A stretch of 64,000 nucleotides of DNA from a virus (lineage: Duplodnaviria; Caudoviricetes): positions 1 through 64,000 of IMG/VR virus record IMGVR_UViG_3300043384_000010, one strand, 5' to 3'. Numbering within the stretch: position 1 is the first letter of the stretch; each line of letters starts with the position of its first letter. Of this stretch, positions 16,901 through 64,000 are shown piece after piece. The position numbers and the translations under genes were made by a program. The notes under the pieces were generated by a model. That model was given only the letters and a program-made list of their open reading frames with translations. It was not told the origin of the DNA and made no database searches.

Positions 16901-18118
16901 CTAAAGGACGGAGATTCCTACTGCAGCGGGGCTGCTTCGGTGGGTTCCTGCTTCGTCGCGCTGCGCCGGGACGAGTCCCGGTCTTACCTGCGCTCCACAG
17001 GCTCTGTCCGCCCGTCCGGCGGTGAGAATGTTCCGGGCCGCGTTCAGGTCCCGGTCGTGTGTGGTGTTGCAGTGCGGGCACGTCCACGTGCGGACCGAGA
17101 GGGGCTTGGGTCCGTCCTTGATCCCGCAGGTGGAGCACACCTGGCTGGTGGGCTCGAACCGTCCGATCCTGGCGAACGTCCGCCCCCACCGGGCCGCCTT
17201 GTACTCCAGCATGCCCACGAACGTGGACCAGCCCGCATCGTGAACCGACTTCGCGAGCTTCGTCCGGGCGAGACCGGCCACGCACAGGTCCTCGACGTAT
17301 ACCGCTTGGGTTTCGCGGATGACCGTCGTGGAAGCCTTGTGGAGCCAGTCCCGCCGGGTGTCCGCCACCCGAGCGTGCAGCCTTGCGACCTTCCGGACCT
17401 GCTTGGCCCGGTTCTTGCTGCTTTTCTGCTTCCGGCTCAGGGACTGCTGTGCCCGCTTCAACCGGCGTTCGGCCTTCCGCAGAAACCTCGGGTTGTCCAC
17501 CACCCTGCCCGACGAAAGGACCGCGAACGACGCCAACCCCAGGTCGATCCCCACCTCGGCATCCACCGGTGGGAGTGGCGCATCCTGCGTCTCGACCACG
17601 AATGAGGCGTGGTACCTGCCCGACGCATCGAGGATCACCGTCACCGACGACGGGTCCGACGGGAGGTCCCTGGACCACCGGACCGGGACGTCCCCGATCT
17701 TCGGGAGGCGCAGCTTCCCGCCCTCCGTGACCTTGAAGTTTGCGTTGCGGGTGAACCGGATCGCCTGCCGGTGGTCCTTCCGGGACCGGAACCTGGGCGG
17801 TGCGACTTTCCGGCCCTTCCGCTTCCCGGACATGGAGTTGAAGAAGTTCCGGTACGCGCCGTTCAGGTCGGCGACCGCCTGTTGCAGGACGACCGCCGAC
17901 ACCTCTGCGAGCCACTCCCGTTCCGGGGTCCGCTTCGCGTTTGTCGTGACCCGCTTCAACAGGTCCCCGTCCGAGATGTACGGCAGACCCTCGGCGTGCG
18001 CTTCGCGCCGTGCGGCGAGCCCGTCGTTGAACACCACCCGTGCGCACCCGAACGCCCTCGCCAGCGCCTGACGCTGACCTGGGCTCGGGTAGAGCCGGAA
18101 GTTGTACCGAAGCTGCAC
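16901..18118 (-). CDS. tnpB: RNA-guided endonuclease TnpB, catalytic residues intact
   Basis: GIDLG, VEDL, Zn ribbon, DRDLNAARN. Confidence 0.97.
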   Translation of the reverse strand: MQLRYNFRLYPSPGQRQALARAFGCARVVFNDGLAARREAHAEGLPYISDGDLLKRVTTNAKRTPEREWLAEVSAVVLQQAVADLNGAYRNFFNSMSGKRKGRKVAPPRFRSRKDHRQAIRFTRNANFKVTEGGKLRLPKIGDVPVRWSRDLPSDPSSVTVILDASGRYHASFVVETQDAPLPPVDAEVGIDLGLASFAVLSSGRVVDNPRFLRKAERRLKRAQQSLSRKQKSSKNRAKQVRKVARLHARVADTRRDWLHKASTTVIRETQAVYVEDLCVAGLARTKLAKSVHDAGWSTFVGMLEYKAARWGRTFARIGRFEPTSQVCSTCGIKDGPKPLSVRTWTCPHCNTTHDRDLNAARNILTAGRADRACGAQVRPGLVPAQRDEAGTHRSSPAAVGISVL

Positions 18119-28766: not shown

Positions 28767-29636
28767 TCACGGCTGCCCAGCCAGCGCCGCGTTGACGTCG
28801 ACGGGACGGGCGAACTCATCGACCTCGCGCAGCACAGTGCACCTGGCGGACTTGACCTTGTCGTCCAGGACAACCATTGCATCCACCGGGATGGCACATT
28901 CGAGGTAGCGCGGCACACCGTCGCCGTTGTAGTAGCGACGAGCATGCGACGGGGACACCCCGAAATGGAGACCGCCACCGCGTCGCGCAGTGGGATCCCA
29001 GTCGGGCGCCTCGACGGCACCACCGATTGGGTAGTTCGTCAGATTGTGGTGCTGGCCAGCGTCCATGTCGATGTCGACGGCCTTGTAGACGATGGCGTCG
29101 CCGGACCGGATCTCGATCCCACGGTAGGCGGCCCACATCTCGGGTGCCTTGAGGTCGATATCGGTGTGGTCGATGAGTACGCCGCCACTGATCTGGCAGC
29201 CGCCAGAATGGAGATGGACGGCGGTATGACTTCCTGCCCGGACCGTGCTGGAGTCGTACGCCCGGACCGTGCTGGAGTCGGACGCCTCGACCGTGCTGGA
29301 GTCGGACGCCTCGACCGTGCTGGAGTCGTACGCCCGGACCGTGCTGGAGTCGTACGCCCGGACCGTGCTGGAGTCGTACGCCTCGACCGTGCTGGAGTCG
29401 TACGCCTCGACCGTGCTGGAGCCGGACGCCCGGACCGTGCTGGAGTCGTACGCCTCGACCGTGCTGGAGTCGTACGCCTCGACCGTGCTGGAGCCGTACG
29501 CCTCGACCGTGCTGGAGCCGGACGCCCGGACCGTCAACCACACCCCCGCAGGATTGTTGATGATGACATAGTCGACGTCAGTGTCAGCCAATGCGGCTTC
29601 GAGTTGCTCCTGGTTAGCGACGGTCACGGTGGTCAT
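28767..29636 (-). CDS. 8-aa-repeat solenoid protein, paralog 1 (DUF7666-like C-terminus)
   Basis: 12 V[ER]A[YS][DG]SST units; C-terminus VYKAVD...YPIG...GLHFGVSPSHARRY. Confidence 0.85.
   Translation of the reverse strand: MTTVTVANQEQLEAALADTDVDYVIINNPAGVWLTVRASGSSTVEAYGSSTVEAYDSSTVEAYDSSTVRASGSSTVEAYDSSTVEAYDSSTVRAYDSSTVRAYDSSTVEASDSSTVEASDSSTVRAYDSSTVRAGSHTAVHLHSGGCQISGGVLIDHTDIDLKAPEMWAAYRGIEIRSGDAIVYKAVDIDMDAGQHHNLTNYPIGGAVEAPDWDPTARRGGGLHFGVSPSHARRYYNGDGVPRYLECAIPVDAMVVLDDKVKSARCTVLREVDEFARPVDVNAALAGQP
29238..29534 (-). repeat. 24-bp coding tandem repeat, about 12 units
   Basis: CCGTGCTGGAGTCGTACGCC(TCGA/CGGA) units. Confidence 0.95.
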
Positions 29637-29721
29637 GGCTGGTTACCTTTCCGGCGTGGCGGAGGGGGCGAGTTGGGGTGGGCGCGGCCCGGGAGTGGTC
29701 ACCGGGGCCGCACCCACGGTC

Positions 29722-32650: not shown

Positions 32651-32974
32651 CTACCCCCCGTGCCCCCGCTCATGCTCGACCCGCCACCGCTGCAACTCCG
32701 CCACATCCGCCGCCAACACCGCCAGAGACGGCGGGCCCTCCACCGAGGGCGGGACCGGAGCAGCCACCACCCGCACACCCCGGCCAGGCTCACCCACCAC
32801 CAGACCCTCAGCCCGCAGCAACGCAGTCGCACGCTGCACCGGACCCTGCGACACCCCGAACTCCTGCCCGAGCGCCGTAGTGGACGGGATGAGAGCCCCG
32901 ACAGGGTAGGTGCCTGACGCGATCCGGGTACGGATCGTGTCGGCGATGTCCTGCCAGGACGACGCGGCGGTCAC
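32651..32974 (-). CDS. GntR-family repressor (KorSA-like position)
   Basis: WQDIADTIRTRIASGTYPVGALIPSTTALGQEFGVSQGPVQRATALLRAEGLV; divergent from the transfer-like module. Confidence 0.9.
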   Translation of the reverse strand: MTAASSWQDIADTIRTRIASGTYPVGALIPSTTALGQEFGVSQGPVQRATALLRAEGLVVGEPGRGVRVVAAPVPPSVEGPPSLAVLAADVAELQRWRVEHERGHGG

Positions 32975-33080: not shown

Positions 33081-33106
33081 CGGATACCTAGTGCACCCTG
33101 TATCCG
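33081..33106. promoter_or_regulatory. Inverted repeat CGGATAC-N12-GTATCCG between the divergent genes (candidate operator)
   Basis: Seen directly; function inferred. Confidence 0.5.
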
Positions 33107-33126
33107 TGACCACAGGAGAGGCACCA

Positions 33127-33321
33127 GTGGTGAAACGGACAGAACGGTCCCCCCTATGGCCGGCGCTTCTCCTCGTCTCCGAAGCCGCCGAACTGCTCCG
33201 TGTTCACACCTCAACCGTCTACCGGTGGTGCCGGGCCGGGACCATCCCCTCACTCCGGGTCGGTGGGTCCGTCCGGATCCACGCCGACCACATCCGGACC
33301 CACCTGGAGGGTGCCTCGTGA
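33127..33321 (+). CDS. Excisionase-like HTH_17 protein
   Basis: LLLVSEAAELLRVHTSTVYRWCRAGTIPSLRVGGSVRI. Confidence 0.85.
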   Translation: MVKRTERSPLWPALLLVSEAAELLRVHTSTVYRWCRAGTIPSLRVGGSVRIHADHIRTHLEGAS

Positions 33322-33824
33322 GTACCACCGCCGACACCGCAGACTGCAGTGCCAACCTCACAATCAGGCAGGTCGCCCGGGCCTGCGCAGCGTCCGTCAC
33401 TGCCGTTGCCCGGATGGTCCGGGAGGGTCTAATCAAGGCCCACCGCGACCCGATCGACGGCACGACGTGGCGGATCCCTCAGACGGAGGTCGCCGAGGTC
33501 GTCAAGATCAGGGCCGAGTGGAGGGTGTCCGGTCCTGGGGTCGCCAACCGGCGGACCGCCCCGCCGGTTGGGGGCCTCGACTGGCAGGACGACGGAAAGT
33601 GCCGGGACCGACCCGACCTGTACATGGGTCCGTACGGGGAGTCGGCACCACGGAAGCGGCGCCGGGAGTCGGCTGCGGTCGCGATCTGCGCCACATGCCC
33701 GGTCATGGAGACGTGCCGCAGTTACGCCCTCGCCGGGAGTGAGAGGTACGGAGTCTGGGGTGGCCTCACTCAGGAGGCGCTGAGGGCGGCCGTGAAGTTG
33801 AGGTACAAGCAGGTGGCGGCGTGA
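33318..33824 (+). CDS. HTH (MerR/xis-like) fused to a WhiB Fe-S domain
   Basis: LTIRQVARAC...; four Cys C...CATCPVMETC and GVWGG. Confidence 0.85.
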   Translation: MSTTADTADCSANLTIRQVARACAASVTAVARMVREGLIKAHRDPIDGTTWRIPQTEVAEVVKIRAEWRVSGPGVANRRTAPPVGGLDWQDDGKCRDRPDLYMGPYGESAPRKRRRESAAVAICATCPVMETCRSYALAGSERYGVWGGLTQEALRAAVKLRYKQVAA

Positions 33825-34043: not shown

Positions 34044-34436
34044 ATGTTCGTGACCCTCGGCGGGGCGGCTGTCGCCCTCATCGTGGCCGCTGTCGCGCGC
34101 AGGTCCGGTCTCCGGGCAGCCGAGGAGGAGGCGGACCTCACGGTCGAGCGGATCGCCTGGAACATCGAGTTCGGTCACCCACTCGGGTCCACCCCTACCG
34201 GGGCGACACCCCGGAAGCGGCTGCGGGCTGACCTGCCCCCATGTCACGGGAAGCTCCTCGTCCATGAGGACGGTCACCAGACCTGCGTGGGCGGCCGGGA
34301 CGACTGCTGGCCCGAGCATGAGACCACCTACAGCCACCGCCGCACCGCCGCATGCAACGCACAGAACCACGGGTGCGGCACCTGCCAGACGCCCGGCTAC
34401 CAGCCAGCCGCAGGACCCGACCGCAGCCACTATTGA
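34044..34436 (+). CDS. Membrane-anchored Cys/His-rich protein
   Basis: N-terminal hydrophobic helix; CH...H..C...C...H...H...C...CGTC. Confidence 0.55.
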   Translation: MFVTLGGAAVALIVAAVARRSGLRAAEEEADLTVERIAWNIEFGHPLGSTPTGATPRKRLRADLPPCHGKLLVHEDGHQTCVGGRDDCWPEHETTYSHRRTAACNAQNHGCGTCQTPGYQPAAGPDRSHY

Positions 34437-34450
34437 ACTGAGGAGTCAAG

Positions 34451-34975
34451 TTGAACGAGCAATGGAATGCACTTCTGATGTCGGGAGGGTGGGTCTACCT
34501 TCTGCCTTTCGTGGCGGTGATCACCGCTGCTGTGGGCTACATCCGCAGCATCCAAGTCACCACGGATCCCATGCCCCTGCCCCCATCCAGGATCATCCAC
34601 GGCGACGAGTTGACCGATGGGATGACGGTCCTCCTCGACTGCCGGGGCAGCCGCTGCCTGTACGCGGGTGACCACGGCCCGACGGCCGTCCATCCGTTGA
34701 CGGTGATCCGCATGCGCCTGTCTGGCGCCTACCGGTACCCGGTGCTGTCTGACCTGTCTGGGACGGAGCACGACATGGCCCCGGTCTACCGGCACGCGAC
34801 TGTCCGGGTCGCTGGGGGACCTGTCCAGACAGTCAGCCTCAACCTGTCTGGGACCTGTCTGGCAGACAGGGCCGACCTGTCTGCCGACCTGTCTGCCGAC
34901 CTGTCTGCACCGCCGAGCACCAACCTGTCTGCCAGACAGGCAGACCTGTCTGCCCGACCTGTCCACGCCGACTGA
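34451..34975 (+). CDS. Membrane protein whose C-terminus is encoded by the 8-mer array
   Basis: TM WVYLLPFVAVITAAVGYI; DLSADLSADLSA tail. Confidence 0.55.
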   Translation: MNEQWNALLMSGGWVYLLPFVAVITAAVGYIRSIQVTTDPMPLPPSRIIHGDELTDGMTVLLDCRGSRCLYAGDHGPTAVHPLTVIRMRLSGAYRYPVLSDLSGTEHDMAPVYRHATVRVAGGPVQTVSLNLSGTCLADRADLSADLSADLSAPPSTNLSARQADLSARPVHAD

Positions 34976-35007
34976 CCGCAGACAGCCCGACCTGTCTGAC
35001 CTGTCTG
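34744..35007 (-). repeat. Array of 12 RGACAGGT 8-mers on the minus strand (ACCTGTCY on plus)
   Basis: Copies at 34752, 34819, 34842, 34853, 34875, 34887, 34899, 34923, 34944, 34957, 34990, 34999. Confidence 0.95.
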
Positions 35008-35296
35008 CCACCCACCAGCCCTGAGGGACCGATCGTGACTCGCATCCGCATCATCGACACCGCCAGGCCAGGGCGCCGGCTCGAACCGGAGTCATCCGCG
35101 GACGTCACACCGACGGACGTCCCAAAGCTGATGCAGATCCTCCAGGGGCGTCGCGCAGTCCGGCCGGACTGGAGGGGACGCCGGCTGGCGATCGAGGCGT
35201 ACGACCGGCGCCATGGCTGGCTCAGGTACGAGCAGCCCCTCTGACATGCCCCCGGGCACCCCTCGAACCCCCTCTCGACCCTCGTTACTCCAAACA

Positions 35297-35377
35297 GGGG
35301 GGTAGGGGGGTAGGGGGTAGGGGAGCAGGGCTCAAACGCGTAGGCGAGAGGGGGGTACCCCCTACCCCCTACCCCCC
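35297..35377. other. G-tract/C-tract inverted repeat (G-quadruplex or hairpin)
   Basis: Four G runs separated by TA, then complementary CCCCCTACCCCCTACCCCCC. Confidence 0.75.
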
Positions 35378-35421
35378 TCACAAACCAGCACCAACCGTCA
35401 CAAACTAGGAAAGGACCACCA

Positions 35422-35874
35422 GTGACTACCTGGCAGTACGTGGGGGCCTTCCTGGTCCTCGGATGGATCTTCCTCGGCATCTGCGTCGGCCTCGACCTCG
35501 GCGGCGTCAAGTCGATCGCGGTCGACGTCTTCGAGGTCATCGGCGCCGCGTCCGTCCTCACTGCGGGCGCACACCTCGCCCGCGGGACGTGGGCATACCG
35601 CTTCATCGGGTGGATCGTCCACATCCACCCGGTCGCCGGATATGTGGCGTTCCTGGCGATCCTCGTCGGGATCGTCCTGTTCGTCGTGGCTGTCCTCCCG
35701 GCGCGGGTGTACAGCGCCACCTCGGTGACGATGTCCATCGCCGTGTTCGGGGTGTTCCTGCCGTCGCTGCTCGTCCAGGTCAATCTCCCCGGGACGTGGG
35801 GTAGCGCGATCAGCGACGCCTGCGCGGTGCCCATCGGGTTCTTGGTTCAGGTGACCGGGGGTGCATGGGGGTGA
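35422..35874 (+). CDS. Multi-pass membrane protein (Spd-like position)
   Basis: 150 aa, about 4-5 hydrophobic helices. Confidence 0.75.
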   Translation: MTTWQYVGAFLVLGWIFLGICVGLDLGGVKSIAVDVFEVIGAASVLTAGAHLARGTWAYRFIGWIVHIHPVAGYVAFLAILVGIVLFVVAVLPARVYSATSVTMSIAVFGVFLPSLLVQVNLPGTWGSAISDACAVPIGFLVQVTGGAWG

Positions 35875-35877
35875 CGT

Positions 35878-36088
35878 GGACAGGTCCGGCACAGCCAGAC
35901 AGGTGGTCGTGGACAGGTCGCAGACAGGTCCCGTGGACAGGTGCAGACAGGTCAGACAGGTAGTGCCAGACAGGTCCCAGACAGGTCGGTGGACAGGTCA
36001 TGGACAGGTCCGGCAGACAGGTTCCAGACAGGTAGGCAGACAGTCAGACAGTCAGTCCCAGACAGGTAGAGCAGACAGCCAGACAGGT
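35878..36088 (+). repeat. Non-coding array of 15 RGACAGGT 8-mers plus 3 variants on the plus strand
   Basis: Copies at 35878, 35897, 35911, 35922, 35935, 35945, 35954, 35968, 35979, 35991, 36002, 36015, 36026, 36060, 36081. Confidence 0.95.
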
Positions 36089-36093
36089 GGTCA

Positions 36094-37308
36094 GTGATGG
36101 ACCTACTCCTCCTCATCCTCGTCTCCACGGGGATCGTGACGTGGCTGAGCGCAGAGCCGGACGGGGTCGCCGCTGGCGTCCGCGGCGCAGCCACCCGGGC
36201 GTTCAGCGAGGGATGGTCGGCGGGCAGCCAGTCCGCCGCGCGCCGCTGGCAGGCAGGTGAGGCCGACAGGGCAGGACGCCGGAAAGTAAGACACAAGCGG
36301 TGGCGAAAGACACGGAAGGGTCGAGCGTTAATCGCCGCCGACAGGGCAGGACGGGCCACAGTCGGGGCCACCGTCAGAGGCGCCCGACTGGTCATCCCCG
36401 CTACAGCAGACGCCATCGGAGCAGCCCGGCGTGCAGCACCACAGGGCTGGGCAGAGCGCCGCGAAGAGCGGCGGACACGCCAAGAAGAGAAGGAGTCGAA
36501 GGAGAAGCGGGAGCGGAAGGCCAAGAAACACCGCGAGACCGGGCGCGCCGCTCAGCCGGAAACCCCCGACATCACCACTCGACCAGGAGCCGCGGAGATC
36601 GACCCGCAGCTCATCGAATGGGCCAAAGCACCCGACCCGGCGGCGGCCGGGGTGACGCGCCCCGCTGCCACGCCCGACCCCATGACTCCGGACGCCGTCC
36701 GACCGGAGATGACAGACCCGACGGCAGCCCGGACCTGCTGGCGCCGCGGATGCGACCAGCAGGCTGGCGACTCCGGTGTGTGTCCGGAGCACGCACCAGT
36801 CACCGTGGAATGCCCGCACTGTGAGAAGACGCAACTCGTGCGCCGTGAACACGCCGACGCGGCTAGGCAGGCGATGGCCGAGGGGTGCCCGCAGCGGCCC
36901 GGCTACAACCCATCAGCAGACACCCGGCACCCCGCCGGGTCAGCTAAGGGAGGAACACCAGTCATGGGAGAAATCGGCAACCACACCGATCTGCAGATGG
37001 AACTCCAGAACAAGCTGGAGGCGCTCGAAAGTCTCGTCGCGGACGTCAAGCAGATGATCAGCGCGGCAACAGAGGAGGCAGAAGCCACGGTCAAGCAAGC
37101 CCAGGGCTACGCCGAGTCCCTGGATGGCGGGCGGTTCGGTGAGATCGTCCACAAGGCGATCGGGACCGTCATGGAAGCCGCTGGGGCGGTGCTGAAGCAG
37201 GTCACCGCGATGCGCGAAGCCGGGGACGGCTTTGAGAAGTCGACCGGCGAGTTGGGGGACGCCATCGGAGCGGCGGAGAAGGAGACGGTCGCCGCCGTCG
37301 GCGCCTGA
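36094..37308 (+). CDS. Membrane-anchored protein with basic region, Cys motifs and C-terminal coiled coil (probable internal start near 36964)
   Basis: N-terminal TM; GGAGG RBS before MGEIGNH; helical acidic C-terminus. Confidence 0.65.
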   Translation: MMDLLLLILVSTGIVTWLSAEPDGVAAGVRGAATRAFSEGWSAGSQSAARRWQAGEADRAGRRKVRHKRWRKTRKGRALIAADRAGRATVGATVRGARLVIPATADAIGAARRAAPQGWAERREERRTRQEEKESKEKRERKAKKHRETGRAAQPETPDITTRPGAAEIDPQLIEWAKAPDPAAAGVTRPAATPDPMTPDAVRPEMTDPTAARTCWRRGCDQQAGDSGVCPEHAPVTVECPHCEKTQLVRREHADAARQAMAEGCPQRPGYNPSADTRHPAGSAKGGTPVMGEIGNHTDLQMELQNKLEALESLVADVKQMISAATEEAEATVKQAQGYAESLDGGRFGEIVHKAIGTVMEAAGAVLKQVTAMREAGDGFEKSTGELGDAIGAAEKETVAAVGA

Positions 37309-37332: not shown

Positions 37333-39314
<1,982 letters not shown>

Positions 39315-39315
<1 letters not shown>

Positions 39316-40298
39316 TGTCCGACTACACCGATCCGTCTCTCGCTGACGAGGAGGGGGTTCTGGCGAAGACTGGGTGGCCGATGGCGTCCGCTATCGGCGT
39401 GGTCGCGGCAGCGGCCATGGTGGAGGCCGGATACAACCTCGGCTGGTTCGTCGGTCACACCCTGCACCTCCCGGCGCCCCTCGCGGTCATGTTCCCGTTG
39501 ATCATGGAGACGGTCGCGGGCACGCTCGCCATCCAGGACCTGAGAGACCGCCGCAGAGGACACGACAGCACAGCAATGAGGGCCGCGACCTACGCCACCC
39601 TGGCGCTGTCGTCCGTGATCAACGGACTTGTCGGCGCAGCATCCTACGGCCCCGCGGGGCTCCTGGAGATCCTGCCCCCGCTAGTCCTCGCCCTGGTGAT
39701 CCACCTCCATGGCGACCGGGCCACCAGGGCGTGGCATTCCCGGGCCGTCACCCGCCCCGAATGGCGTGCAGCCCGGCACCGGGAGGCGCGCGTCGACTCC
39801 GTCCTCGCCGTCCTCCCGCTCCTCCTCGGTGACGACGAACACGGCAAGGCCACTGTCGCGCTGCTCCGCCGCCGGCTGGAGTCGTGCACCCTGGAGCCGG
39901 GCCATGCACTGGTCTCCGCCGGGTGGGGTGACCGGGTAGCCCGGATTGAGTCCCCGTCAGCTCTGCGACGGCTGGAAACGATCGCCGACACAGTGTGGGG
40001 TGACGGTGAGCGGCCCGCCGGGGCGCAACCCGAGGTACAGCCTGCCCCCACCCAGAGGGAGCCAGCGCCCCACACGTCAGACGTGAACTCTCCGACGGCG
40101 CCGCCAGCCATCGGAGTGGATCGCCGGGGCGCCACCGACGACGAGATCCGCGCCGTCCTCGCCGAGGCGGGATGGCCCGGCCGAACCATCGCGGCAAGAC
40201 GCCTGACGGACGCTGGTCTCCCATGCGACACTGGACGTCTCGCGGACATCCTCCGCGAGCACAAGGCGGGCCCGACACTGCGGGCCATCGCCCTATGA
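39315..40298 (+). CDS. DUF2637 / SpdA-like membrane protein with C-terminal HTH-like segment
   Basis: Four TM helices, LAVMFPLIME...LPPLVLALVIH; coupled to the translocase. Confidence 0.75.
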
Positions 40299-41455: not shown

Positions 41456-42577
41456 TCACTCGGTCACCTTCGTGGCGGTCTCGACCGGGTCCCCGTGCAT
41501 GTCCACCTCGCGGACTACGGTGCATGAGCGTGCCTTGCACTTGCCTTCCAGCCCGACCAGGTCCTCGACCGGGACGGCCACCTCCAGAAACCGAGGCGCA
41601 CCGGCCCCGTTGAAGTATCTGCGCGCATGCGACGGGGACACCCCGAAGTGCAGGCCGTGCCCGCACCGACCCGACGCCTCCCAGTCGCGAGCGGTGACGG
41701 TTTCGCCGATCGGGTAGGCGGTGGAGATGTAGTCCTGCCCGGCTCGCAGGTCGGCGTCGACGGCCTTGTAGAGGACTGCCGCCCCGTCGGTCACGGTGAC
41801 GCCATGGAAGTCGAGCCAGGTGGTCGGGTCGGTCATGTCCAGTTGGGTGAGGTCGATGACGACTCCGCCGGACAGGGTGACGCGGGTGGAGTGGAGGTGG
41901 ACGGCGACGTACTTCCGCGCCTCGACTCTGCTGGAGTCCCACGCCTCGACGCTGCTGGAGTCCAGCGCCTCGACGCTGCTGGAGTCCCGCGCCTCGACGC
42001 TGCTGGAGTCCCACGCCACGACGCTGCTGGAGTCCCGCGCCTCGACGCTGCTGGAGCCCCGCGCCTCGACGCTGCTGGAGCCCCGCGCCTCGACGCTGCT
42101 GGAGTCCCACGCCACGACGCTGCTGAAGCCCCACGCCACGACGCTGCTGGAGCCCCGCGCCACGACTCTGCTGAAGTCCCGCGCCTCGACGCTGCTGGAG
42201 CCCCGCGCCTCGACGCTGCTGGAGTCCCGCGCCTCGACGCTGCTGGAGTCCCACGCCTCGACTCTGCTGGAGCCCCGCGCCACGACGCTGCTGGAGCCCC
42301 ACGCCTCGACTCTGCTGGAGCCCCGCGCCTCGACTCTGCTGGAGCCCCGCGCCTCGACTCTGCTGGAGCCCCGCGCCACGACGCTGCTGGAGCCCCGCGC
42401 CTCGACTCTGCTGGAGCCCCGCGCCTCGACTCTGCTGGAGCCCCGCGCCACGACGCTGCTGGAGCCCGTCTGGTTGATTTGGAGCCAGACTCCGGCGTCG
42501 GAGCGGATGTCGATCTGGGCGGCCTTGTCGGCGAGGGCATTGTCGAGTTCGGCCTGTGTGGTGACGGTGGTGGTCAT
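41456..42577 (-). CDS. 8-aa-repeat solenoid protein, paralog 2
   Basis: 22 V[EV]A[RWL][GD][SF]S[SR] units; same N- and C-terminal domains as 28767-29636. Confidence 0.85.
   Translation of the reverse strand: MTTTVTTQAELDNALADKAAQIDIRSDAGVWLQINQTGSSSVVARGSSRVEARGSSRVEARGSSSVVARGSSRVEARGSSRVEARGSSRVEAWGSSSVVARGSSRVEAWDSSSVEARDSSSVEARGSSSVEARDFSRVVARGSSSVVAWGFSSVVAWDSSSVEARGSSSVEARGSSSVEARDSSSVVAWDSSSVEARDSSSVEALDSSSVEAWDSSRVEARKYVAVHLHSTRVTLSGGVVIDLTQLDMTDPTTWLDFHGVTVTDGAAVLYKAVDADLRAGQDYISTAYPIGETVTARDWEASGRCGHGLHFGVSPSHARRYFNGAGAPRFLEVAVPVEDLVGLEGKCKARSCTVVREVDMHGDPVETATKVTE
41930..42467 (-). repeat. 24-bp coding tandem repeat, about 22 units
   Basis: CGCCTCGACGCTGCTGGAGCCCCG-type units. 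Confidence 0.95.
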
Positions 42578-42610
42578 GGATCCAACCTTTCCGTGGCGGT
42601 TCTGCTACCT

Positions 42611-42642
42611 AGAGTCTACGCCCTGTTGCGCTAGCGGGTCAA
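42611..42642 (-). promoter_or_regulatory. Conserved promoter, copy C
   Basis: TTGACCCGctagcgcaacaGGGCGTAGACTCT upstream of solenoid paralog 2. Confidence 0.85.
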
Positions 42643-43045
42643 CCGGACCGACCCGGTTCCATCACGGAACCACGCGCCCGGGACGCTCACCGCTCACCGA
42701 CCCCAGCCACCGCGTACTGCGATCTGATGCTGGCGCCGACGCTCTGCCACGCACGCAGCTCCGCGTCCAGGGCCTTCGCCTGACGTTCCGCATGCCGGTA
42801 CGCCACATCCGCTACATCGCGGGCTGTCCGCTCCACCGCGGTCGCCAGTTCCGCGACGTACTTCCGTTCGTGCGCCGGCCGGTCCTTCGCTCCGAGGTAG
42901 GCGCGGGCCTCCGCCAGGTCACAAGCGTGGTCGGCGGCGAGGAACGCCGCATACCGGTCGGCGCACACCCTGACCCCGTTGGCGATCCGGTTGGACACGT
43001 CCCGGATCTTCCCCTCAATCTGGACCGGAGTGAGATCCTCAACGC

Positions 43046-43585
43046 TCATGGCGCCTCCCAGGGCATGACGGGTCGGGGACGGTCCAAGGTGACAGCGTCA
43101 AGGCCGCCGTCCGGCAGGAGCAGATACCAGCCCGCCGGGAGGGGCGGACACGCTGGGGCCAGCCACACAGGCTCGGCCGCGGGGTCCTGCCATGACCGCA
43201 GCCGCCATCCGCCCGCGCATGCGAGGGTGATCCACCGACCTGTCCACGTGTGACACCCCGGGTCACCGGACCCGAGGGAACACAGGCCCAGCCCGTTGAC
43301 GGGGCTCCACGGGCCTCCCTGGGAGCGGGCGACACGGTGGGACCAGGACTGCGCGGGACGTCCGCAGCCGAGCTCGCACCAGCCTCCGGAGCGCTCCTTG
43401 ACGACAGCCCTAGCCCGGCGTTCGTCCGGGGTCACCTGGGGGTGGACGGTGGTCAGGCTGGACTGTCGCATCGGGACGCCAGGACTTCCCTCCCGGGGGG
43501 AAGTCCTGGCCTTGAGTTGTCCGCGGGCCAGACCCTGGCCTCTAGGCAGGGGGGCGGTACGGGCAGGCATGGCGGAGCGTTTCAT
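43046..43585 (-). CDS. HNH endonuclease-like protein
   Basis: CELGCG...SHRVARSQGG...NGLGLC...CH. Confidence 0.7.
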   Translation of the reverse strand: MKRSAMPARTAPLPRGQGLARGQLKARTSPREGSPGVPMRQSSLTTVHPQVTPDERRARAVVKERSGGWCELGCGRPAQSWSHRVARSQGGPWSPVNGLGLCSLGSGDPGCHTWTGRWITLACAGGWRLRSWQDPAAEPVWLAPACPPLPAGWYLLLPDGGLDAVTLDRPRPVMPWEAP

Positions 43586-44262: not shown

Positions 44263-45462
44263 TTACGCGACGAGTTGCCGCGCGCGTTGGGGTTCGCGCT
44301 TCACGGACCGGGCCGACTTCACCCTGTCTCCACGCGCTGCCACCGCACGTCCTGCGGCGGGTGTTCGATCTGCGATGTTGCGTGCCGCATTCACGTCCGC
44401 GTTCGCCTGGTGCCCGCAAGCCACGCACCGGAACACCGCTTGACTCTCGCGGGATTCTCGGGCGACATGCTTGCAGGCGTTGCAGGTCTGCGACGTGTAC
44501 GCGGGGTTGACCTTCTCGATCCGCCCGAGGGCCTTCTGTTCGGTGCGGATCAGGAGCAGTGTCCAGCCTGCGGCGAGGATCCCCCGGTTGAGTCCGGCCT
44601 TCTGCCGGACGTTGCGGCCCGGAGCCTCCAAGGTGCCACGGGCGGACCGGGTCATCGCCTTGACGTTGAGATCCTCGAACCGGACCACGTCGAAGCGTCG
44701 GGCGAGGTCGGTGCTGGTCTTCTCGGCCCAGTCCTTCCGCCGGTCGCCGTCGCGGGCATTCAGCCGGGCGATGGCCATCTTCACCCCGGTGCGCCGGTTC
44801 GAGCCCCGCTTGGCTCGGGCGAGGCGTCGTTGCAGGCGCAGGAGTCTCTCGGCTTCCTTGGGTCGCAGTCCGGCGGGGCTGGTCATTTCCCCGGTAGACA
44901 GGGCGACCGCGGCCTTCACGCCCCGGTCGACGCCGACGATCTCTCCGGTGCCGGGTGCGGGGATCGGGTCCGGGATCGCAGCGAACGCCACATGCCAGCG
45001 GCCCGCACGGTCCCGGGTCACCCGGTACGACTTCGCGTCCGGGACCTGCCGGGAACGCTTGAACCGCACCCATCCGACCTTCGGAACCCACACGCTGGAC
45101 CATTTCGCGTTGTCCTGCCGGACCCGGAAGTCCTTCCCGACAACCCGCAACCCTTCCGACTGGCCGCGTTTCCGCCACGTCGGCCGGTCGTGGGTGCCTG
45201 CGAAGAAGTTCCGCCACGCCTGGTCCAGGTCCCGCAACGCCTGCTGCTGCACACCCTGCGGGCCGTCCCGCAGCCACGGTTCCGCGGCGCGGGCTTCGGT
45301 GAGTTGACGGCACTGCTCCGCGAACCCTGGGGTCGGGCCCTGCCAGCGGCGCCACATCAGGCGCTGCTCCAAGCCGAGGTTCCACACGTACCGGGCGTGT
45401 CCACAGATCTCCAGCAGCAGGACCTCCTGCGCTGGGGACGGGTACAGCCGGTAACGACTCAC
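44263..45462 (-). CDS. tnpB: RNA-guided endonuclease TnpB, catalytic residues intact
   Basis: GVDRG, FEDL, Zn ribbon, NADVNAARN. Confidence 0.97.
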   Translation of the reverse strand: MSRYRLYPSPAQEVLLLEICGHARYVWNLGLEQRLMWRRWQGPTPGFAEQCRQLTEARAAEPWLRDGPQGVQQQALRDLDQAWRNFFAGTHDRPTWRKRGQSEGLRVVGKDFRVRQDNAKWSSVWVPKVGWVRFKRSRQVPDAKSYRVTRDRAGRWHVAFAAIPDPIPAPGTGEIVGVDRGVKAAVALSTGEMTSPAGLRPKEAERLLRLQRRLARAKRGSNRRTGVKMAIARLNARDGDRRKDWAEKTSTDLARRFDVVRFEDLNVKAMTRSARGTLEAPGRNVRQKAGLNRGILAAGWTLLLIRTEQKALGRIEKVNPAYTSQTCNACKHVARESRESQAVFRCVACGHQANADVNAARNIADRTPAAGRAVAARGDRVKSARSVKREPQRARQLVA

Positions 45463-48670: not shown

Positions 48671-49067
48671 TCGACGCCCCGATCTCGGATGGGGCCGGGA
48701 CGGCGCCGATCGCCTGCGGGATGGTCGCCCCGTCCGCGATCCGCGCCTTCCGGGACCGGAGGATCGCCACCCACTGAACGCCCGGGGTTGATTCGTCCAC
48801 CCCGGCCATCAGTTCGGAGTCGGTCACATTGTGGAACCGCTCAGACCGGATGCTCCGGACGCCCGCCGCGACGTGCGACGGCTTGCACCAGTCGGTTGTG
48901 CCCGCGTGGTGTACCCGGACGGCCTGGAGTGCGTCCTCCCGTGATGTGACTCCCGCGATCTTCAACGCGTCGAGCCATGCCTGGATGTCGAACTTCCCGA
49001 CGGTCCGCCGGTCGTAGGCGGCGCACAGGGTGAGGACGTCCACGACGTCGTCCCATTCGAGGCTCAC
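48663..49067 (-). CDS. Helicase loader/inhibitor-like protein
   Basis: Between initiator and dnaB; LTLCAAYDRRTVG...AW. Confidence 0.55.
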   Translation of the reverse strand: MSLEWDDVVDVLTLCAAYDRRTVGKFDIQAWLDALKIAGVTSREDALQAVRVHHAGTTDWCKPSHVAAGVRSIRSERFHNVTDSELMAGVDESTPGVQWVAILRSRKARIADGATIPQAIGAVPAPSEIGASND

Positions 49068-50215
49068 GCGCCTCCTCCGATCGCGAGCAGGTGTGGCGGG
49101 TGGGTTGTGCCGCGCTTGAGTGATTGCGCCTGCATGACCCTGTCAGTGGTTGTGGATCCGGAACTGGGACCTGGCTTGGGTGCTATCGAGGCGATGGCCT
49201 TGAGGCGGAGTTGGTCGTATTGGGCGCGGAATGTCGGCATTGACTGGATGTTGGATCGCCAGAACGGGTCGGCTTGGCACCAGCGGATGAGGTTCGCTGC
49301 CTTGACGGGGTCGCGCCTGTCGGTGTCGATCATCAGTCGGGCGTTGTCGAGCCACTTGACGGTGATCGTTGGGCGTTTGCAGCCGTTGGCTGCCATGAGG
49401 TCTGCCAGGAGGTCGCACAGGCTGTGGATGTCCTGGCGGGCGTTCTTGTCGGTCTTGGCCGAGGAGGAGGCAGAGTTGTCGTCGGTCGGGTCGCCTCCGT
49501 CGCGGGTGTCGTCGATCTCCTGGTCGGTGGTCGCGTCAGCGGCTTCCGACGAAGAGAGGTTGTTGTTGTTTGGTTGCAGGTTGCTAGGTGCAGGAGTAGG
49601 TCTAGGAGTGGGGCTTGGGTTTCCCGATGGGTTCCCCGAACCCTTCGGCTCATCCCTTCCGGAAGGGTTTCTGGAAGGGTTTCCGTGAGGGTTTCCGAGA
49701 GGGTTTCCGAGAGGGTTTCCGAGAGGGTGGGTGGATGGGTCGATCGCCTCCCTGGACACCATGTCCGACAGGAGTTCCTTGCTGGCCTTGGCCCCCCACG
49801 AGGTCAACTCGGGATGGTCCTCAGCGAGCCGCTTCACCTCGTGGACGATGACCCCGCGCAGCACGGACGACGCGACCGCCATGTGCGCGGAGTGCATCGC
49901 CACGGCCATGTTTGGCTGCTTCATCAGCCCGTCATGCCGGACGAACGAGCGCACTAGGACCTCCTCTGTGCCCTCATCCACCAGCACGTACATCTCGGCC
50001 TGCAACTGCGCTGCGGCCTGCTCCACCCTCTCTGGTGTCCAGTCGGGGCCGATGAGCGCGGCTAGACGCTTCGGGCGCCAGTCGGCCACCCCACAGTGAG
50101 TCAGCGACGGGTGGGTGAGCAGGACGAAGTAGAGGAGCTTGGAGTCGCCGCACAGACCCCGGAAGTCGTCGTCGGCCCAGATGGACAGCCGGATCGGCGC
50201 ATACTCACGCGCCAT
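49064..50215 (-). CDS. Replication initiator protein containing the origin
   Basis: N-terminal wHTH-like IWADDDF...; internal iterons; C-terminal WCQADPFWRSNIQS..FR..YD. Confidence 0.75.
   Translation of the reverse strand: MAREYAPIRLSIWADDDFRGLCGDSKLLYFVLLTHPSLTHCGVADWRPKRLAALIGPDWTPERVEQAAAQLQAEMYVLVDEGTEEVLVRSFVRHDGLMKQPNMAVAMHSAHMAVASSVLRGVIVHEVKRLAEDHPELTSWGAKASKELLSDMVSREAIDPSTHPLGNPLGNPLGNPHGNPSRNPSGRDEPKGSGNPSGNPSPTPRPTPAPSNLQPNNNNLSSSEAADATTDQEIDDTRDGGDPTDDNSASSSAKTDKNARQDIHSLCDLLADLMAANGCKRPTITVKWLDNARLMIDTDRRDPVKAANLIRWCQADPFWRSNIQSMPTFRAQYDQLRLKAIASIAPKPGPSSGSTTTDRVMQAQSLKRGTTHPPHLLAIGGGA
49614..49730. repeat. 12-bp iterons G(A/T/G)(G/A)AGGGTTTCC, 5 full + 1 partial, with inverted copies (candidate ori)
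   Basis: Units at 49661, 49673, 49685, 49697, 49709, 49721; palindrome CCCTTCCGGAAGGG. Confidence 0.75.
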
Positions 50216-62283: not shown

Positions 62284-62615
62284 TAACTCAGGATCCGACG
62301 CGGGCTATGGGGGTAAGTTGAGTCAGTTGATCTCTCGGTTCGCGTGCAACGAGATCGACCAGGAGGAGTTCCTCACCGGCGTTGAGGGCATCGGGGATCC
62401 GCCGCCAGAGTCACCGATGCCCAGGCTTGCGGAGACTCCCACGTCTACGCATGGGATCTCCCGCCCGCAAGATCTCCGAGATCGGGGTGCGTTGGTCGCA
62501 GCCCGGATCCGGCATCTGTGAACCTCACCCGAATAACACCTGTGGTTACCTAGCGCCGATCGTTCCACAACGACAGACGCTAGACTTCCCGGGATGTTAC
62601 GGGAGGTCAACGCGC

Positions 62616-63998
62616 ATGTTAGGTCAAGGACGCGCCAGACGGGCGATCATCTACGCCCGTCAGTCCATCTACCGGGAAGAGTCTGCCAGCCTCGAAACAC
62701 AGGTGGAGCACTGCCGGCAAGCGTGCGCTAGGTCAGGGTATGTGGTCGTCGGTGACCCGGTAGTCGACGCCGACCTGTCCGGGAGGTCGTTCAAGCGGCG
62801 GTCAATCGGCCCGATCATCGACCGGGTCCGTGAGGGCGCCGCCGATCTGGTGGTCGTGTGGAAGTGGTCCCGGTGGGGTCGGAACACGAGGGAGTCCCTC
62901 AACTGGCTGGCCGAACTGGAGGAGGCCGGGGGGCGGCTCGAAGCCGCAACGGAGGCACTCGACTCGACGACCCCCGTCGGCAAATTCAGCGTGACCCAAA
63001 TGCTGGCTGTCGCGCAACTCCTGTCCGACCAGATCGGTGACTCGTGGCGTGACGCCAGGCTCGGGATGGTCGTACGGCGGGCGCTCCCGCCAACCGGCGG
63101 CCAGCGACTGGGCTACGTCTATGACCCTGCCACGAAGCTGTACGCCCCCCACCCGGTCGCCGGGCCAGCCATAGCTGACGCATACGACCGGTACGTCCAC
63201 GGCGCGTCCGCGTGGGCGATCACCCTGCACCTGCGCGGGCGAGGCGTCACCACCACCCGGGGTGGGGTGATCACCGAACCGAGCGTGCGAGTCGCCCTCG
63301 ACTCGGGGTTCGCTGCCGGAATGATCCGCCTCAACAATCCGGGCCGGATCTTCACCCCGGAGCAACTCGACAGCCTCGGGGTGGACGGGGACGGCCCAGT
63401 CTGGATCCCCAACCATCTCCCAGACGGGGGCCGGTCATGGGAACCTCTCATCGGCCAGGACGTGTGGGAGCAGTACCGGACCAAGCACACCGAGCGGAAA
63501 GTCCTACCGCCGAGGACCCGGAACCCGCGGCAGGCCCTCGCTGGGCTCCTGCGGTGCGCTGGATGCAACCGGCCGATGGCCTACCGTCCGGACCGAGGCA
63601 GGTGGCGGTGCCCGCACGAGCCCGTGAAGAGCCAGGGGGAGTCATGCCCGGTGCGGGTGACGATCTCCGGTGCAGATGCCACCGATGCGGTGCGGGCGTG
63701 GCTGGCCGCCAGACATGACCAGTCACGGGACCTGTCCGGGGAGGTGGCGCGGCGGATGAAGGGGGTCTCGGCGGTCGGGGACGTCGCTGCGATCGAGCGC
63801 GCCTTGGCCGACCAGGGGCGGCAGAAGGACCGGCTCGTCGCCGCAGTCCGGGACGGGCTCCTCGATGCGGACGACATCCGGGCGCAACGCGCCGCTATCG
63901 GGGATGCGGTGGAGAGGCTCACCGCGGACCTTGCGGCGGCCCGACGCAGGTCGGTGACGGCTGCTGTCGTGCCACGGGAGGTGTACGGGCTGCTCCTG
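62616..63998 (+). CDS. Large serine recombinase (integrase), 3' partial; absent from the ORF track
   Basis: Manual translation: AIIYARQS...DADLSG...VWKWSRWGRN, recombinase domain, CAGC Zn ribbon, coiled coil; GGAGG RBS. Confidence 0.95.
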   Translation, partial: MLGQGRARRAIIYARQSIYREESASLETQVEHCRQACARSGYVVVGDPVVDADLSGRSFKRRSIGPIIDRVREGAADLVVVWKWSRWGRNTRESLNWLAELEEAGGRLEAATEALDSTTPVGKFSVTQMLAVAQLLSDQIGDSWRDARLGMVVRRALPPTGGQRLGYVYDPATKLYAPHPVAGPAIADAYDRYVHGASAWAITLHLRGRGVTTTRGGVITEPSVRVALDSGFAAGMIRLNNPGRIFTPEQLDSLGVDGDGPVWIPNHLPDGGRSWEPLIGQDVWEQYRTKHTERKVLPPRTRNPRQALAGLLRCAGCNRPMAYRPDRGRWRCPHEPVKSQGESCPVRVTISGADATDAVRAWLAARHDQSRDLSGEVARRMKGVSAVGDVAAIERALADQGRQKDRLVAAVRDGLLDADDIRAQRAAIGDAVERLTADLAAARRRSVTAAVVPREVYGLLL

Positions 63999-64000
63999 GA

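What the first reader, a model, noticed from the sequence alone, without database searches (positions are those of the whole stretch)
34744..36088. Two opposed arrays of RGACAGGT (12 + 15 copies): candidate clt/TRS loading site
27 perfect copies fall within 1.35 kb, all on the minus strand at left and all on the plus strand at right, 1.3 kb upstream of the translocase. TraB of pSVH1 is established to bind 8-bp direct repeats (GACCCGGA) in clt through its winged helix, as FtsK reads KOPS. A divergent, bipartite polarity would suggest bidirectional loading or convergence on the centre. Alternative: a centromere-like site, although no ParA/ParB was seen.
Basis: partly seen in the sequence, partly recalled or inferred. 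Interest (0 to 1): 0.8.

Follow-up and report, generated by a model that had tools for sequence, protein, structure and literature searches.

The report
Docking-site arrays of a phage DNA-transfer module
Two real, opposed arrays of one 8-base word flank the core of a plasmid-type DNA-pump module in a temperate actinomycete phage, but comparison with relatives suggests that the DNA-binding tail of the neighbouring membrane protein reads them, not the pump's winged helix.

Summary
In detail: RGACAGGT occurs 12 times on the minus strand (34752-35006) and 15 times on the plus strand (35878-36088). The window holds 38 copies against 5 expected.

The arrays lie in a 90-kb tailed temperate phage. They sit inside an operon that encodes a membrane-anchored FtsK/TraB-type translocase and a DUF2637 membrane protein. 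Twelve related modules carry short-repeat arrays in or next to the same genes, usually at the same gene boundaries, but the repeated word differs between them. So the arrays are a conserved cis element of the module, built like a plasmid clt.

A relative (L372) has a translocase 91% identical to this one, with the same recognition helix and nearly the same wing, yet carries GCG[T/G]TCA[C/G] arrays. The word instead tracks the C-terminal three-helix tail of the DUF2637 protein. I predicted this for L372 before fetching its contig, and the prediction held.

Best reading (about 0.5): the arrays are multivalent docking sites that tether the phage DNA to the membrane transfer complex through the DUF2637 tail. 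Binding and transfer are untested. Earlier notes of this scan reached a similar view on other genomes. I rate it a new variant of a known kind, interest 0.6.

The parts
34752..35006 (-). Left array: 12 perfect RGACAGGT on the minus strand, plus about 4 degenerate plus-strand copies
35878..36088 (+). Right array: 15 perfect RGACAGGT on the plus strand, plus 3 degenerate copies. It ends 5 bp before the next start codon.
   Evidence: Homology with L372 begins exactly at its end.
35035..35244 (+). 69-codon ORF between the arrays, conserved in relatives. Confident small alpha/beta fold with no recognisable DNA-binding fold.
35296..35385 (.). Purine-rich long hairpin with a conserved apical CGCG-nAGG-CG(C/A)G, at the centre between the arrays
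   Evidence: -29.8 kcal/mol, z -3.75; 9 of 25 pairs with compensatory changes in 5 loci
35422..35874 (+). 150-codon multi-pass membrane protein, conserved in relatives
36094..37308 (+). 404-codon protein: N-terminal membrane helix, basic region, Cys-rich insert, C-terminal helical region. It is 79% identical in L372 despite the different array.
37342..39315 (+). Membrane-anchored FtsK/TraB-type translocase: membrane segments, Walker A GGGKGS, Walker B LDE, C-terminal winged helix
39315..40298 (+). DUF2637 membrane protein. Its start overlaps the translocase stop by one base.
40137..40268 (+). C-terminal three-helix tail of the DUF2637 protein (residues about 275-318), the proposed reader of the arrays
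32651..32970 (-). Short GntR-type winged-helix regulator, divergent from the operon (true start uncertain). The probable operator palindrome GGATAC..GTATCC at about 33082-33108 is unlike the octamer.
33156..33824 (+). HTH_17-WhiB fusion at the head of the operon

Best explanation
The two arrays are multi-copy docking sites for the C-terminal helix-turn-helix-like tail of the DUF2637 membrane protein. That protein is made from the gene translationally coupled to the TraB-type translocase gene. Many tails, each on a long Pro/Ala-rich linker from a membrane core, would bind copies spaced about one helical turn apart. This would hold the phage DNA at the membrane next to the pump, with the segment between the arrays (small ORFs and a conserved hairpin) presented to it. 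In function this is a clt-like 'choose my own DNA' site, but with the sequence reader on a partner protein.

Shown here:
- the arrays
- their conservation in place
- their change of word between relatives
- the mismatch with the pump's winged helix
- the match with the DUF2637 tail

Inferred:
- binding itself
- membrane tethering
- a role in moving phage DNA between hyphal compartments or cells
For: 1. The arrays are far beyond chance and largely non-coding.
2. Related modules carry arrays in or beside the same genes but with other words:
   - L001: GCGTTCA[CC/GG], 10 copies
   - L004: GCGTTCAGGT, on both sides of the same central unit
   - L003: GGTGACCCC/GGGGTCA
   - L006 and L007: inside the linker codons of a DUF2637-like gene
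   - L373: CCGAACAA, 7 copies
   - L374 and L375: TTGCCCACC
   - L010 and L011
3. Natural experiment, W against L372. Identities are translocase 91% (same helix 3, wing nearly identical), ORF404 79% and the downstream small ORF 77%, but DUF2637 only 60%, with a changed tail. The array is entirely replaced (25 GCG[T/G]TCA[C/G] in 270 bp; 27 in the locus against 2.7 expected). DNA homology resumes exactly at the array's end.
4. Tail type tracks the word.
   - L001, L004 and L372 all have the tail S-C-G-G-x-R-[LI]-Q and CGTTCA-type arrays.
   - L004 is only 35% identical to W in the translocase.
   - W has P-C-D-T-G-R-L-A and GACAGGT.
   - I predicted the L372 array from its tail before reading the DNA.
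5. L374 and L375 have similar tails and the same word.
6. DUF2637 homologues keep a 55-70% identical membrane core but carry several different tail types. This is what a specificity module would look like.
7. The tail models as three helices with pLDDT about 80. There is a weak HTH_21 match for the L372 tail.
8. In several loci the array lies in or directly after the DUF2637 gene itself.
Against: - No binding data exist.
- The contigs of L001 and L372 end at the array, so genes upstream of it are unseen there. These would be the homologues of the 69-, 130- and 174-codon ORFs and of the HTH-WhiB fusion, and any of them could have changed together with the array.
- The co-variation rests on two word classes in four loci, plus one further related pair.
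- The fold search of the tail gave nothing significant. The top rows are small HTH domains at E of 2 or more.
- SpdB2 of pSVH1, the plasmid spread protein that DUF2637 proteins may correspond to (relationship not tested here), is reported to bind DNA non-specifically (PMC4447253).
- The array words resemble repeats that TraA/TraB proteins were shown to bind in plasmids (TGACACC, PMC3583192).
Confidence: 0.5

Rival explanations
1. Classical clt/TRS: the translocase itself reads RGACAGGT through its C-terminal winged helix and assembles on the arrays. The two polarities would load two motors in opposite directions.
For: - The architecture is TraB-like: membrane segments, an FtsK-type ATPase and a winged helix.
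- Plasmid clt loci are clusters of 7-9 bp repeats bound by TraB/TraA, with similar words: TGACACC, CCGCACA[CG][CG] (PMC3583192, PMC4447253).
- In L011 and L373 the array lies at or just after the 3' end of the translocase gene, as in plasmids.
Against: - W, L372 and L001 have the same helix 3 and the same or nearly the same wing, but different array words.
- L001 and L004 share a word but differ in helix 3.
- Strict opposite polarity is not conserved in relatives.
Confidence: 0.12
2. The arrays are bound by another product of the module encoded upstream (the HTH_17-WhiB fusion, the Cys-rich 130-codon ORF, the 174-codon membrane ORF or the 69-codon ORF). They would act mainly as operators or roadblocks that hold down the potentially lethal pump genes.
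For: - Both arrays sit directly before start codons inside one operon.
- HTH_17/Xis-type proteins are known to coat direct repeats (my own knowledge).
- The upstream genes are unseen in L001 and L372.
Against: - The 69-codon ORF has a confident alpha/beta fold with no DNA-binding match.
- The GntR operator-like palindrome is unlike the octamer.
- 27 sites is far more than operators need.
- In relatives the arrays lie inside coding linkers rather than at promoters.
- This reading gives no explanation for the tail/word match.
Confidence: 0.2
3. The arrays are iterons of a replication origin or a centromere for maintenance of the prophage as a plasmid.
For: - Inverted blocks of GACAGGT or CGTTCASS repeats next to VapE/DUF5906/PriCT primase-helicase genes are common in unrelated viral contigs and look like origins.
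- P4 ori/crr uses TGTTCACC (my own knowledge).
- Membrane tethering by a DNA-binding membrane protein could also serve segregation.
Against: - The phage has its own lambda-O-like initiator, with a 12-bp tandem array inside the gene at 49645-49740. That is the likelier origin.
- No primase-helicase of the VapE type and no ParA/ParM was found among the ORFs scanned.
- The phage has two integrases.
- The arrays travel with the transfer module, not with replication genes, in all 12 relatives.
Confidence: 0.1

Closest known systems
clt loci with TraB/TraA recognition repeats of Streptomyces conjugative plasmids (pSVH1, pJV1, pWTY27, pIJ101)
   Same: - Clusters of 7-9 bp repeats close to a membrane-anchored FtsK-like translocase gene.
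- The word differs between elements.
- The words are of similar type (GACA/TCA followed by CC or GG).
- A GntR repressor and small membrane 'spread' genes are in the same module (PMC3583192, PMC4447253, PMC4170104).
   Different: - Here there are 27 copies in two blocks 870 bp apart with opposite polarity, instead of 4-9 direct copies in one block.
- They lie upstream of the pump gene.
- The pump's winged helix does not co-vary with the word.
- The element is a tailed phage.
SpdA2/sps of pIJ101 (PMC4170104)
   Same: A small DNA-binding protein of the transfer/spread region binds repeats that lie inside or next to its own gene. The sites are written into coding sequence, as in L003, L006 and L007.
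   Different: sps is a 12-bp palindrome in 1-3 copies, conserved between plasmids. Here there are many copies of a word that changes between close relatives. No SpdA homologue was identified here.
SpdB2 of pSVH1 and its homologues in actinophages (PMC4447253)
   Same: A multi-pass membrane protein encoded beside TraB that interacts with TraB and binds double-stranded DNA. The paper notes homologues in actinophages that might help phage DNA to spread.
   Different: The reported DNA binding is non-specific. I did not test whether DUF2637 proteins and SpdB2 are homologous.
Streptomyces plasmid-phages such as pZL12 (Zhong et al. 2010, cited in PMC4487206 and PMC3583192)
   Same: A tailed-phage genome that also carries plasmid-type transfer genes.
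   Different: pZL12 is maintained as a plasmid with ParAB. This phage has integrases and no ParAB in the ORFs scanned. No sequence match to GenBank phages or PLSDB plasmids was found.
KOPS/FtsK-gamma and SRS/SpoIIIE; RacA/ram (my own knowledge)
   Same: Short oriented words are read by a DNA-binding domain to orient or anchor DNA at a membrane machine. RacA/ram is a many-site anchor.
   Different: KOPS are scattered over the chromosome and read by the motor itself. Here the words are concentrated in two arrays and apparently read by a partner protein.

Membership tests
clt/TRS of TraB-type conjugation | Cluster of short (7-9 bp) repeats next to the translocase gene | tested here: met
   The same holds in 12 related modules.
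clt/TRS of TraB-type conjugation | Repeats are recognised by helix 3 of the translocase's C-terminal winged helix | tested here: not met
   Tested by co-variation only. W and L372 have the same helix 3 and nearly the same wing, with 91% identical pumps, but different words. The same holds for L001.
clt/TRS of TraB-type conjugation | Required in cis for transfer | not testable with these tools
   Needs a mating assay.
TraB/FtsK-like conjugative translocase | N-terminal membrane segments, FtsK/SpoIIIE-type ATPase, C-terminal winged helix | tested here: met
   - Walker A and B motifs are present.
- The family profile hits FtsK/SpoIIIE/EccC ATPases (4nh0 E 1e-21, FtsK 2ius E 3e-6) and winged helices.
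- FtsK_SpoIIIE Pfam matches appear in 4 of 40 members.
- The window's own protein is below Pfam threshold.
Iteron origin of the P4 / VapE-D5 primase-helicase type | Arrays adjacent to the cognate initiator gene with an origin-binding domain | tested here: not met
   No such gene was found among the ORFs scanned. The phage initiator has its own internal 12-bp repeats at 49645-49740.
Plasmid centromere (ParR/parC, ParB/parS, omega/heptads) | Partition NTPase and centromere-binding protein encoded beside the repeats | tested here: inconclusive
   None in the module. The whole genome was not scanned gene by gene. L011, L374 and L375 do have a ParA gene nearby.
GntR (Kor/TraR) operator | The same word at the repressor's own divergent promoter | tested here: not met
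   The promoter region has GGATAC..GTATCC and no RGACAGGT.
SpdA2/sps | 12-bp palindrome CGTCACGTGACG within or next to a spdA gene | tested here: not met
   That palindrome is absent from 34500-36400. SpdA homology was not tested.

The most novel reading that the evidence does not exclude
In this family of TraB-type modules the choice of which DNA to move is made by the changeable HTH tail of a DUF2637 membrane partner, not by the pump. The tail docks on large arrays of a private word. Tail and word would evolve together as an identity code, so that each phage or element moves only its own DNA. The two opposed arrays around a conserved hairpin would present a defined DNA loop to the pump.
Probability: 0.35. 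Interest if true: 0.75.

Novelty: new variant of a known kind. Interest (0 to 1): 0.6.

Why it matters
How a hexameric double-strand DNA pump selects and threads a specific circular molecule in actinomycete conjugation is still open. The accepted answer is that TraB's own winged helix reads the clt repeats. Here closely related natural variants separate the pump from the repeat word and tie the word to a partner membrane protein. That gives a concrete pair of proteins and DNA sites (W against L372) for direct binding and swap tests. It also adds to the evidence that tailed phages of mycelial actinomycetes carry machinery to move their DNA without virions.

Tried and rejected
- **Searches for more relatives of the translocase.** Searches with A1 in viral, genome and metagenome contigs found nothing. 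A2 was too diverse for the tool. A3 gave three loci.
- **The genome search.** It could not be used for a virus record.
- **Scans for GACAGGT and CGTTCASS arrays**. They returned hundreds of unrelated loci, none with a module protein. The high-GC ones turned out to be origin-like arrays beside primase-helicase genes. This raised the origin reading, which I rejected for this phage.
- **Extra DUF2637 loci.** The DUF2637 profile and a conserved DNA pattern found no further viral loci.
- **GenBank phages and PLSDB plasmids.** No match to the module. There were only two weak partial translocase hits.
- **Domain and fold searches.** Pfam, NCBIfam and PHROGs give nothing for the 69-, 130-, 150-, 174- and 404-codon ORFs. 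Foldseek gave nothing significant for the DUF2637 tail or the 69-codon ORF.
- **RNA-level reading** (a protein-titrating transcript like CsrB). I considered and dropped it, because relatives have the word in both orientations and inside coding frames.
- **KOPS-like genome-wide polarity.** The 13 copies outside the arrays are biased (6 of 7 plus on the left, 5 of 6 minus on the right). They point towards the arrays while the arrays point away, and the numbers are small.
- **Lost tool.** The Python box was lost, so later comparisons were done with the other tools only.

Full report
**Observation.** RGACAGGT occurs 38 times in the window against 5.1 expected (sd 2.3, largest shuffle 11). Twelve copies lie on the minus strand at 34752-35006 and fifteen on the plus strand at 35878-36088. 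The whole genome is one contig of 90,316 b with the window as its first 64 kb, and it holds only 13 further copies. Spacing is mostly 9-14 bp. The sequence shows a longer consensus, Y-R-GACAGGT, and some degenerate copies. Four of these lie on the opposite strand inside the left array. Third-position GC shows that coding signal fades inside both arrays. The left one forms the tail of ORF 34451-34975 and ends 28 bp before a 69-codon ORF. The right one ends 5 bp before the 404-codon ORF.

**Setting.** The genome is a tailed temperate phage. It has:
- a portal, a large terminase and a head morphogenesis protein
- a DnaB helicase, an O-like/DnaD-like initiator and a sliding clamp
- a serine and a tyrosine integrase

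The tool itself treats it as a virus record. The arrays lie in a plus-strand operon, opposite to the flanking phage genes:

| Coordinates | Feature |
|---|---|
| 32651-32970, minus strand | divergent short GntR regulator |
| 33156-33824 | HTH_17-WhiB fusion |
| 34044-34436, 34451-34975 | two ORFs without family |
| 34752-35006 | left array |
| 35035-35244 | 69-codon ORF |
| 35296-35385 | long purine-rich hairpin |
| 35422-35874 | 150-codon membrane protein |
| 35878-36088 | right array |
| 36094-37308 | 404-codon protein |
| 37342-39315 | 657-residue translocase |
| 39315-40298 | DUF2637 membrane protein; its ATG overlaps the translocase stop |

The translocase has N-terminal membrane segments, Walker A and B motifs and a C-terminal winged helix. 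The window's protein is below Pfam threshold for FtsK_SpoIIIE. However, a profile of the family hits FtsK/SpoIIIE/EccC ATPases (4nh0 E 1e-21; FtsK 2ius E 3e-6) and winged-helix domains in the PDB. So the TraB-like architecture is confirmed.

**Relatives.** An exhaustive profile search found 343 relatives of the translocase. I fetched DNA for twelve modules. All carry arrays of a short word in or next to the same genes, but the word differs.

| Locus | Array word and place |
|---|---|
| L001 | GCGTTCA[CC/GG], ten copies, directly before the homologue of the 404-codon ORF |
| L004 | GCGTTCAGGT in both orientations, on both sides of the same unit (69-codon ORF, hairpin, membrane ORF) |
| L003 | GGTGACCCC/GGGGTCA inside the open frame of the 404-type gene |
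| L006 | CCGATCG in linker codons of a DUF2637-like gene placed upstream |
| L007 | TGGCCCA in linker codons of a DUF2637-like gene placed upstream |
| L009 | GC-rich words (CCGGGCC/CGGCCCG) inside the 404-type ORF; a weaker case |
| L010 | GGACA[GG/CC] |
| L011 | three GGGGTGTC then three GACACCCC, in the linker codons of the translocase |
| L373 | seven CCGAACAA at 11-12 bp, just after the translocase gene |
| L374, L375 | TTGCCCACC in both orientations around a CGCG-rich centre, just after the DUF2637 gene |
| L372 | GCG[T/G]TCA[C/G], 25 copies in 270 bp before the 404-type ORF |

L008 showed no clear array. The arrays are therefore a conserved, rapidly re-written cis element of the module. 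The central hairpin is also conserved. In five loci the stems differ but stay paired (9 of 25 pairs have compensatory changes), and the apical CGCG-nAGG-CGCG is nearly invariant.

**Who reads the word.**
- L001 (53% identical pump) has the same helix 3 (D-G-A-Y-A-R-K-L-L) and the same wing as the window, but a different word.
- L004 shares L001's word but has a different helix 3.
- By contrast, the last helix of the DUF2637 tail is alike in L001 and L004 (S-C-G-G-x-R-[LI]-Q) and different in the window (P-C-D-T-G-R-L-A). This holds although the window and L004 are the closer pair overall, 54% against 37%.

A search for DUF2637 homologues showed a well-conserved membrane core with several unlike tail types. 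One homologue, P0162, is 60% identical to the window's protein and has the S-C-G-G tail. I therefore predicted CGTTCA-type arrays for its contig.

The contig (L372) confirmed this. It has 25 copies of GCG[T/G]TCA[C/G] in the 270 bp before the 404-type ORF, and 27 in the locus against 2.7 expected. Yet its translocase is 91% identical to the window's, with the same helix 3 and a nearly identical wing.

| Gene | Identity, window against L372 |
|---|---|
| translocase | 91% |
| 404-type protein, including its Cys-rich insert | 79% |
| downstream small ORF | 77% |
| DUF2637 protein | 60%, with the differences concentrated in the tail helices |

Nucleotide homology between the window and L372 starts exactly at the end of the array. 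L374 and L375 add a further pair with similar tails and the same word, though they are related throughout.

The tail models as three helices at pLDDT about 80. One tail has a weak HTH_21 match. The fold search found nothing significant, and its top rows are small HTH domains.

**Other candidates.**
- The GntR promoter region carries a GGATAC..GTATCC palindrome and no octamer.
- The 69-codon ORF has a confident alpha/beta fold (pLDDT 91) with no DNA-binding match.
- The 404-codon protein and the translocase are excluded as specificity determinants by L372.
- The upstream HTH_17-WhiB fusion and the 130- and 174-codon ORFs cannot be excluded, because L001 and L372 end at the array.

**Origin or centromere.** Pattern scans showed that inverted blocks of GACAGGT or CGTTCASS repeats are common next to VapE/DUF5906/PriCT primase-helicase genes in unrelated viral contigs. 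They probably serve there as origins. From memory, P4 ori/crr uses TGTTCACC. This phage has no such gene among those scanned. Its O-like initiator gene contains its own 12-bp tandem array at 49645-49740, the usual place for a lambda-type origin. No partition ATPase is in the module.

**Comparison with what is known.** Plasmid clt loci are clusters of 7-9 bp repeats bound by TraB/TraA. The repeats are TGACACC in pWTY27, CCGCACA[CG][CG] in pJV1 and 8-bp TRS in pSVH1, read by helix 3 of the winged helix (PMC3583192, PMC4447253, PMC4170104). The window's arrays have this format and even a similar word type. They differ in four ways:
- copy number, 27
- the split into two opposed blocks 870 bp apart
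- position upstream of the pump gene
- above all, the lack of co-variation with the pump's winged helix

Related precedents:
- SpdB2, a membrane partner of TraB, binds DNA and has homologues in actinophages (PMC4447253).
- SpdA2 binds repeats inside its own gene (PMC4170104).
- Plasmid-phages such as pZL12 carry transfer genes (cited in PMC4487206).

Earlier notes of this scan on other genomes describe similar phage-borne TraB modules. One (e1-3826237) reached the same conclusion, that the array is the docking site of the membrane protein's tail. I reached it independently, before reading that note.

**Verdict.** The clt-like nature of the arrays is supported. The mechanism I think most likely (0.5) is multivalent docking of DUF2637 tails on the arrays. 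This would tether the phage DNA to the membrane pump complex and mark it as the substrate. Binding, tethering and transfer are all inferred. The strict divergent polarity is real here but not general, so I give little weight to bidirectional loading.

Noticed in passing
window 35296-35385; also L004:6428-6505, L006:6487-6562, L007:6578-6645, L009:181-250: Long purine-rich hairpin between the 69-codon ORF and the membrane ORF. The stems differ between loci but stay paired (9 of 25 pairs compensatory), and the apical CGCG-nAGG-CGCG is nearly invariant. It is a candidate conserved cis site of the module, possibly the target of the conserved winged helix, or a terminator.
   Followed up: partly
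window 49645-49740: Six to seven tandem 12-bp units (TTCCGnGAGGGT) inside the O-like/DnaD-like replication initiator gene (49064-50215, minus strand). This is the probable phage replication origin.
   Followed up: partly
L105:7540-7839, L188:1698-1974, L042:12317-12578, L115:3957-4118, L111:535-682; L295:4483-4750, L310:2900-3197, L318:1302-1644: In unrelated viral contigs, inverted blocks of GGGACAGGT or CGTTCASS repeats lie directly beside VapE/DUF5906/PriCT primase-helicase genes, often around an AT-rich centre. They look like origin iterons. The words are the same as in the transfer-module arrays, which may point to a shared type of DNA-binding domain or to chance.
   Followed up: partly
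whole genome G000 (window 2264-63730, plus 67396 and 73031): The 13 RGACAGGT copies outside the arrays are biased in orientation: 6 of 7 on the plus strand left of the arrays and 5 of 6 on the minus strand right of them. They point towards the arrays while the arrays point away.
   Followed up: no
window 62382-64000 (continues to 64331 in G000) and G000 70154-71161: A large serine recombinase and a tyrosine integrase in one phage genome.
   Followed up: no
window 29240-29640 and 41900-42400: Two dense in-frame tandem repeat fields (words such as GTGCTGGAG and GACGCTGCTGGAG, about 12 copies each) inside ORFs 28767-29636 (minus strand) and 41796-43253 (plus strand).
   Followed up: no
window 44263-45462 and 16901-18118: TnpB/OrfB_IS605-type genes (Cas12f-like TNB domain) inside the phage genome.
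   Followed up: no
L374:15319-17931 and L375:15753-18429: In two long contigs the DUF2637/translocase module lies directly upstream of a canonical ftsK (4TM, alpha, motor and gamma domains) and dnaB. There the pump has two tandem C-terminal winged helices.
   Followed up: no
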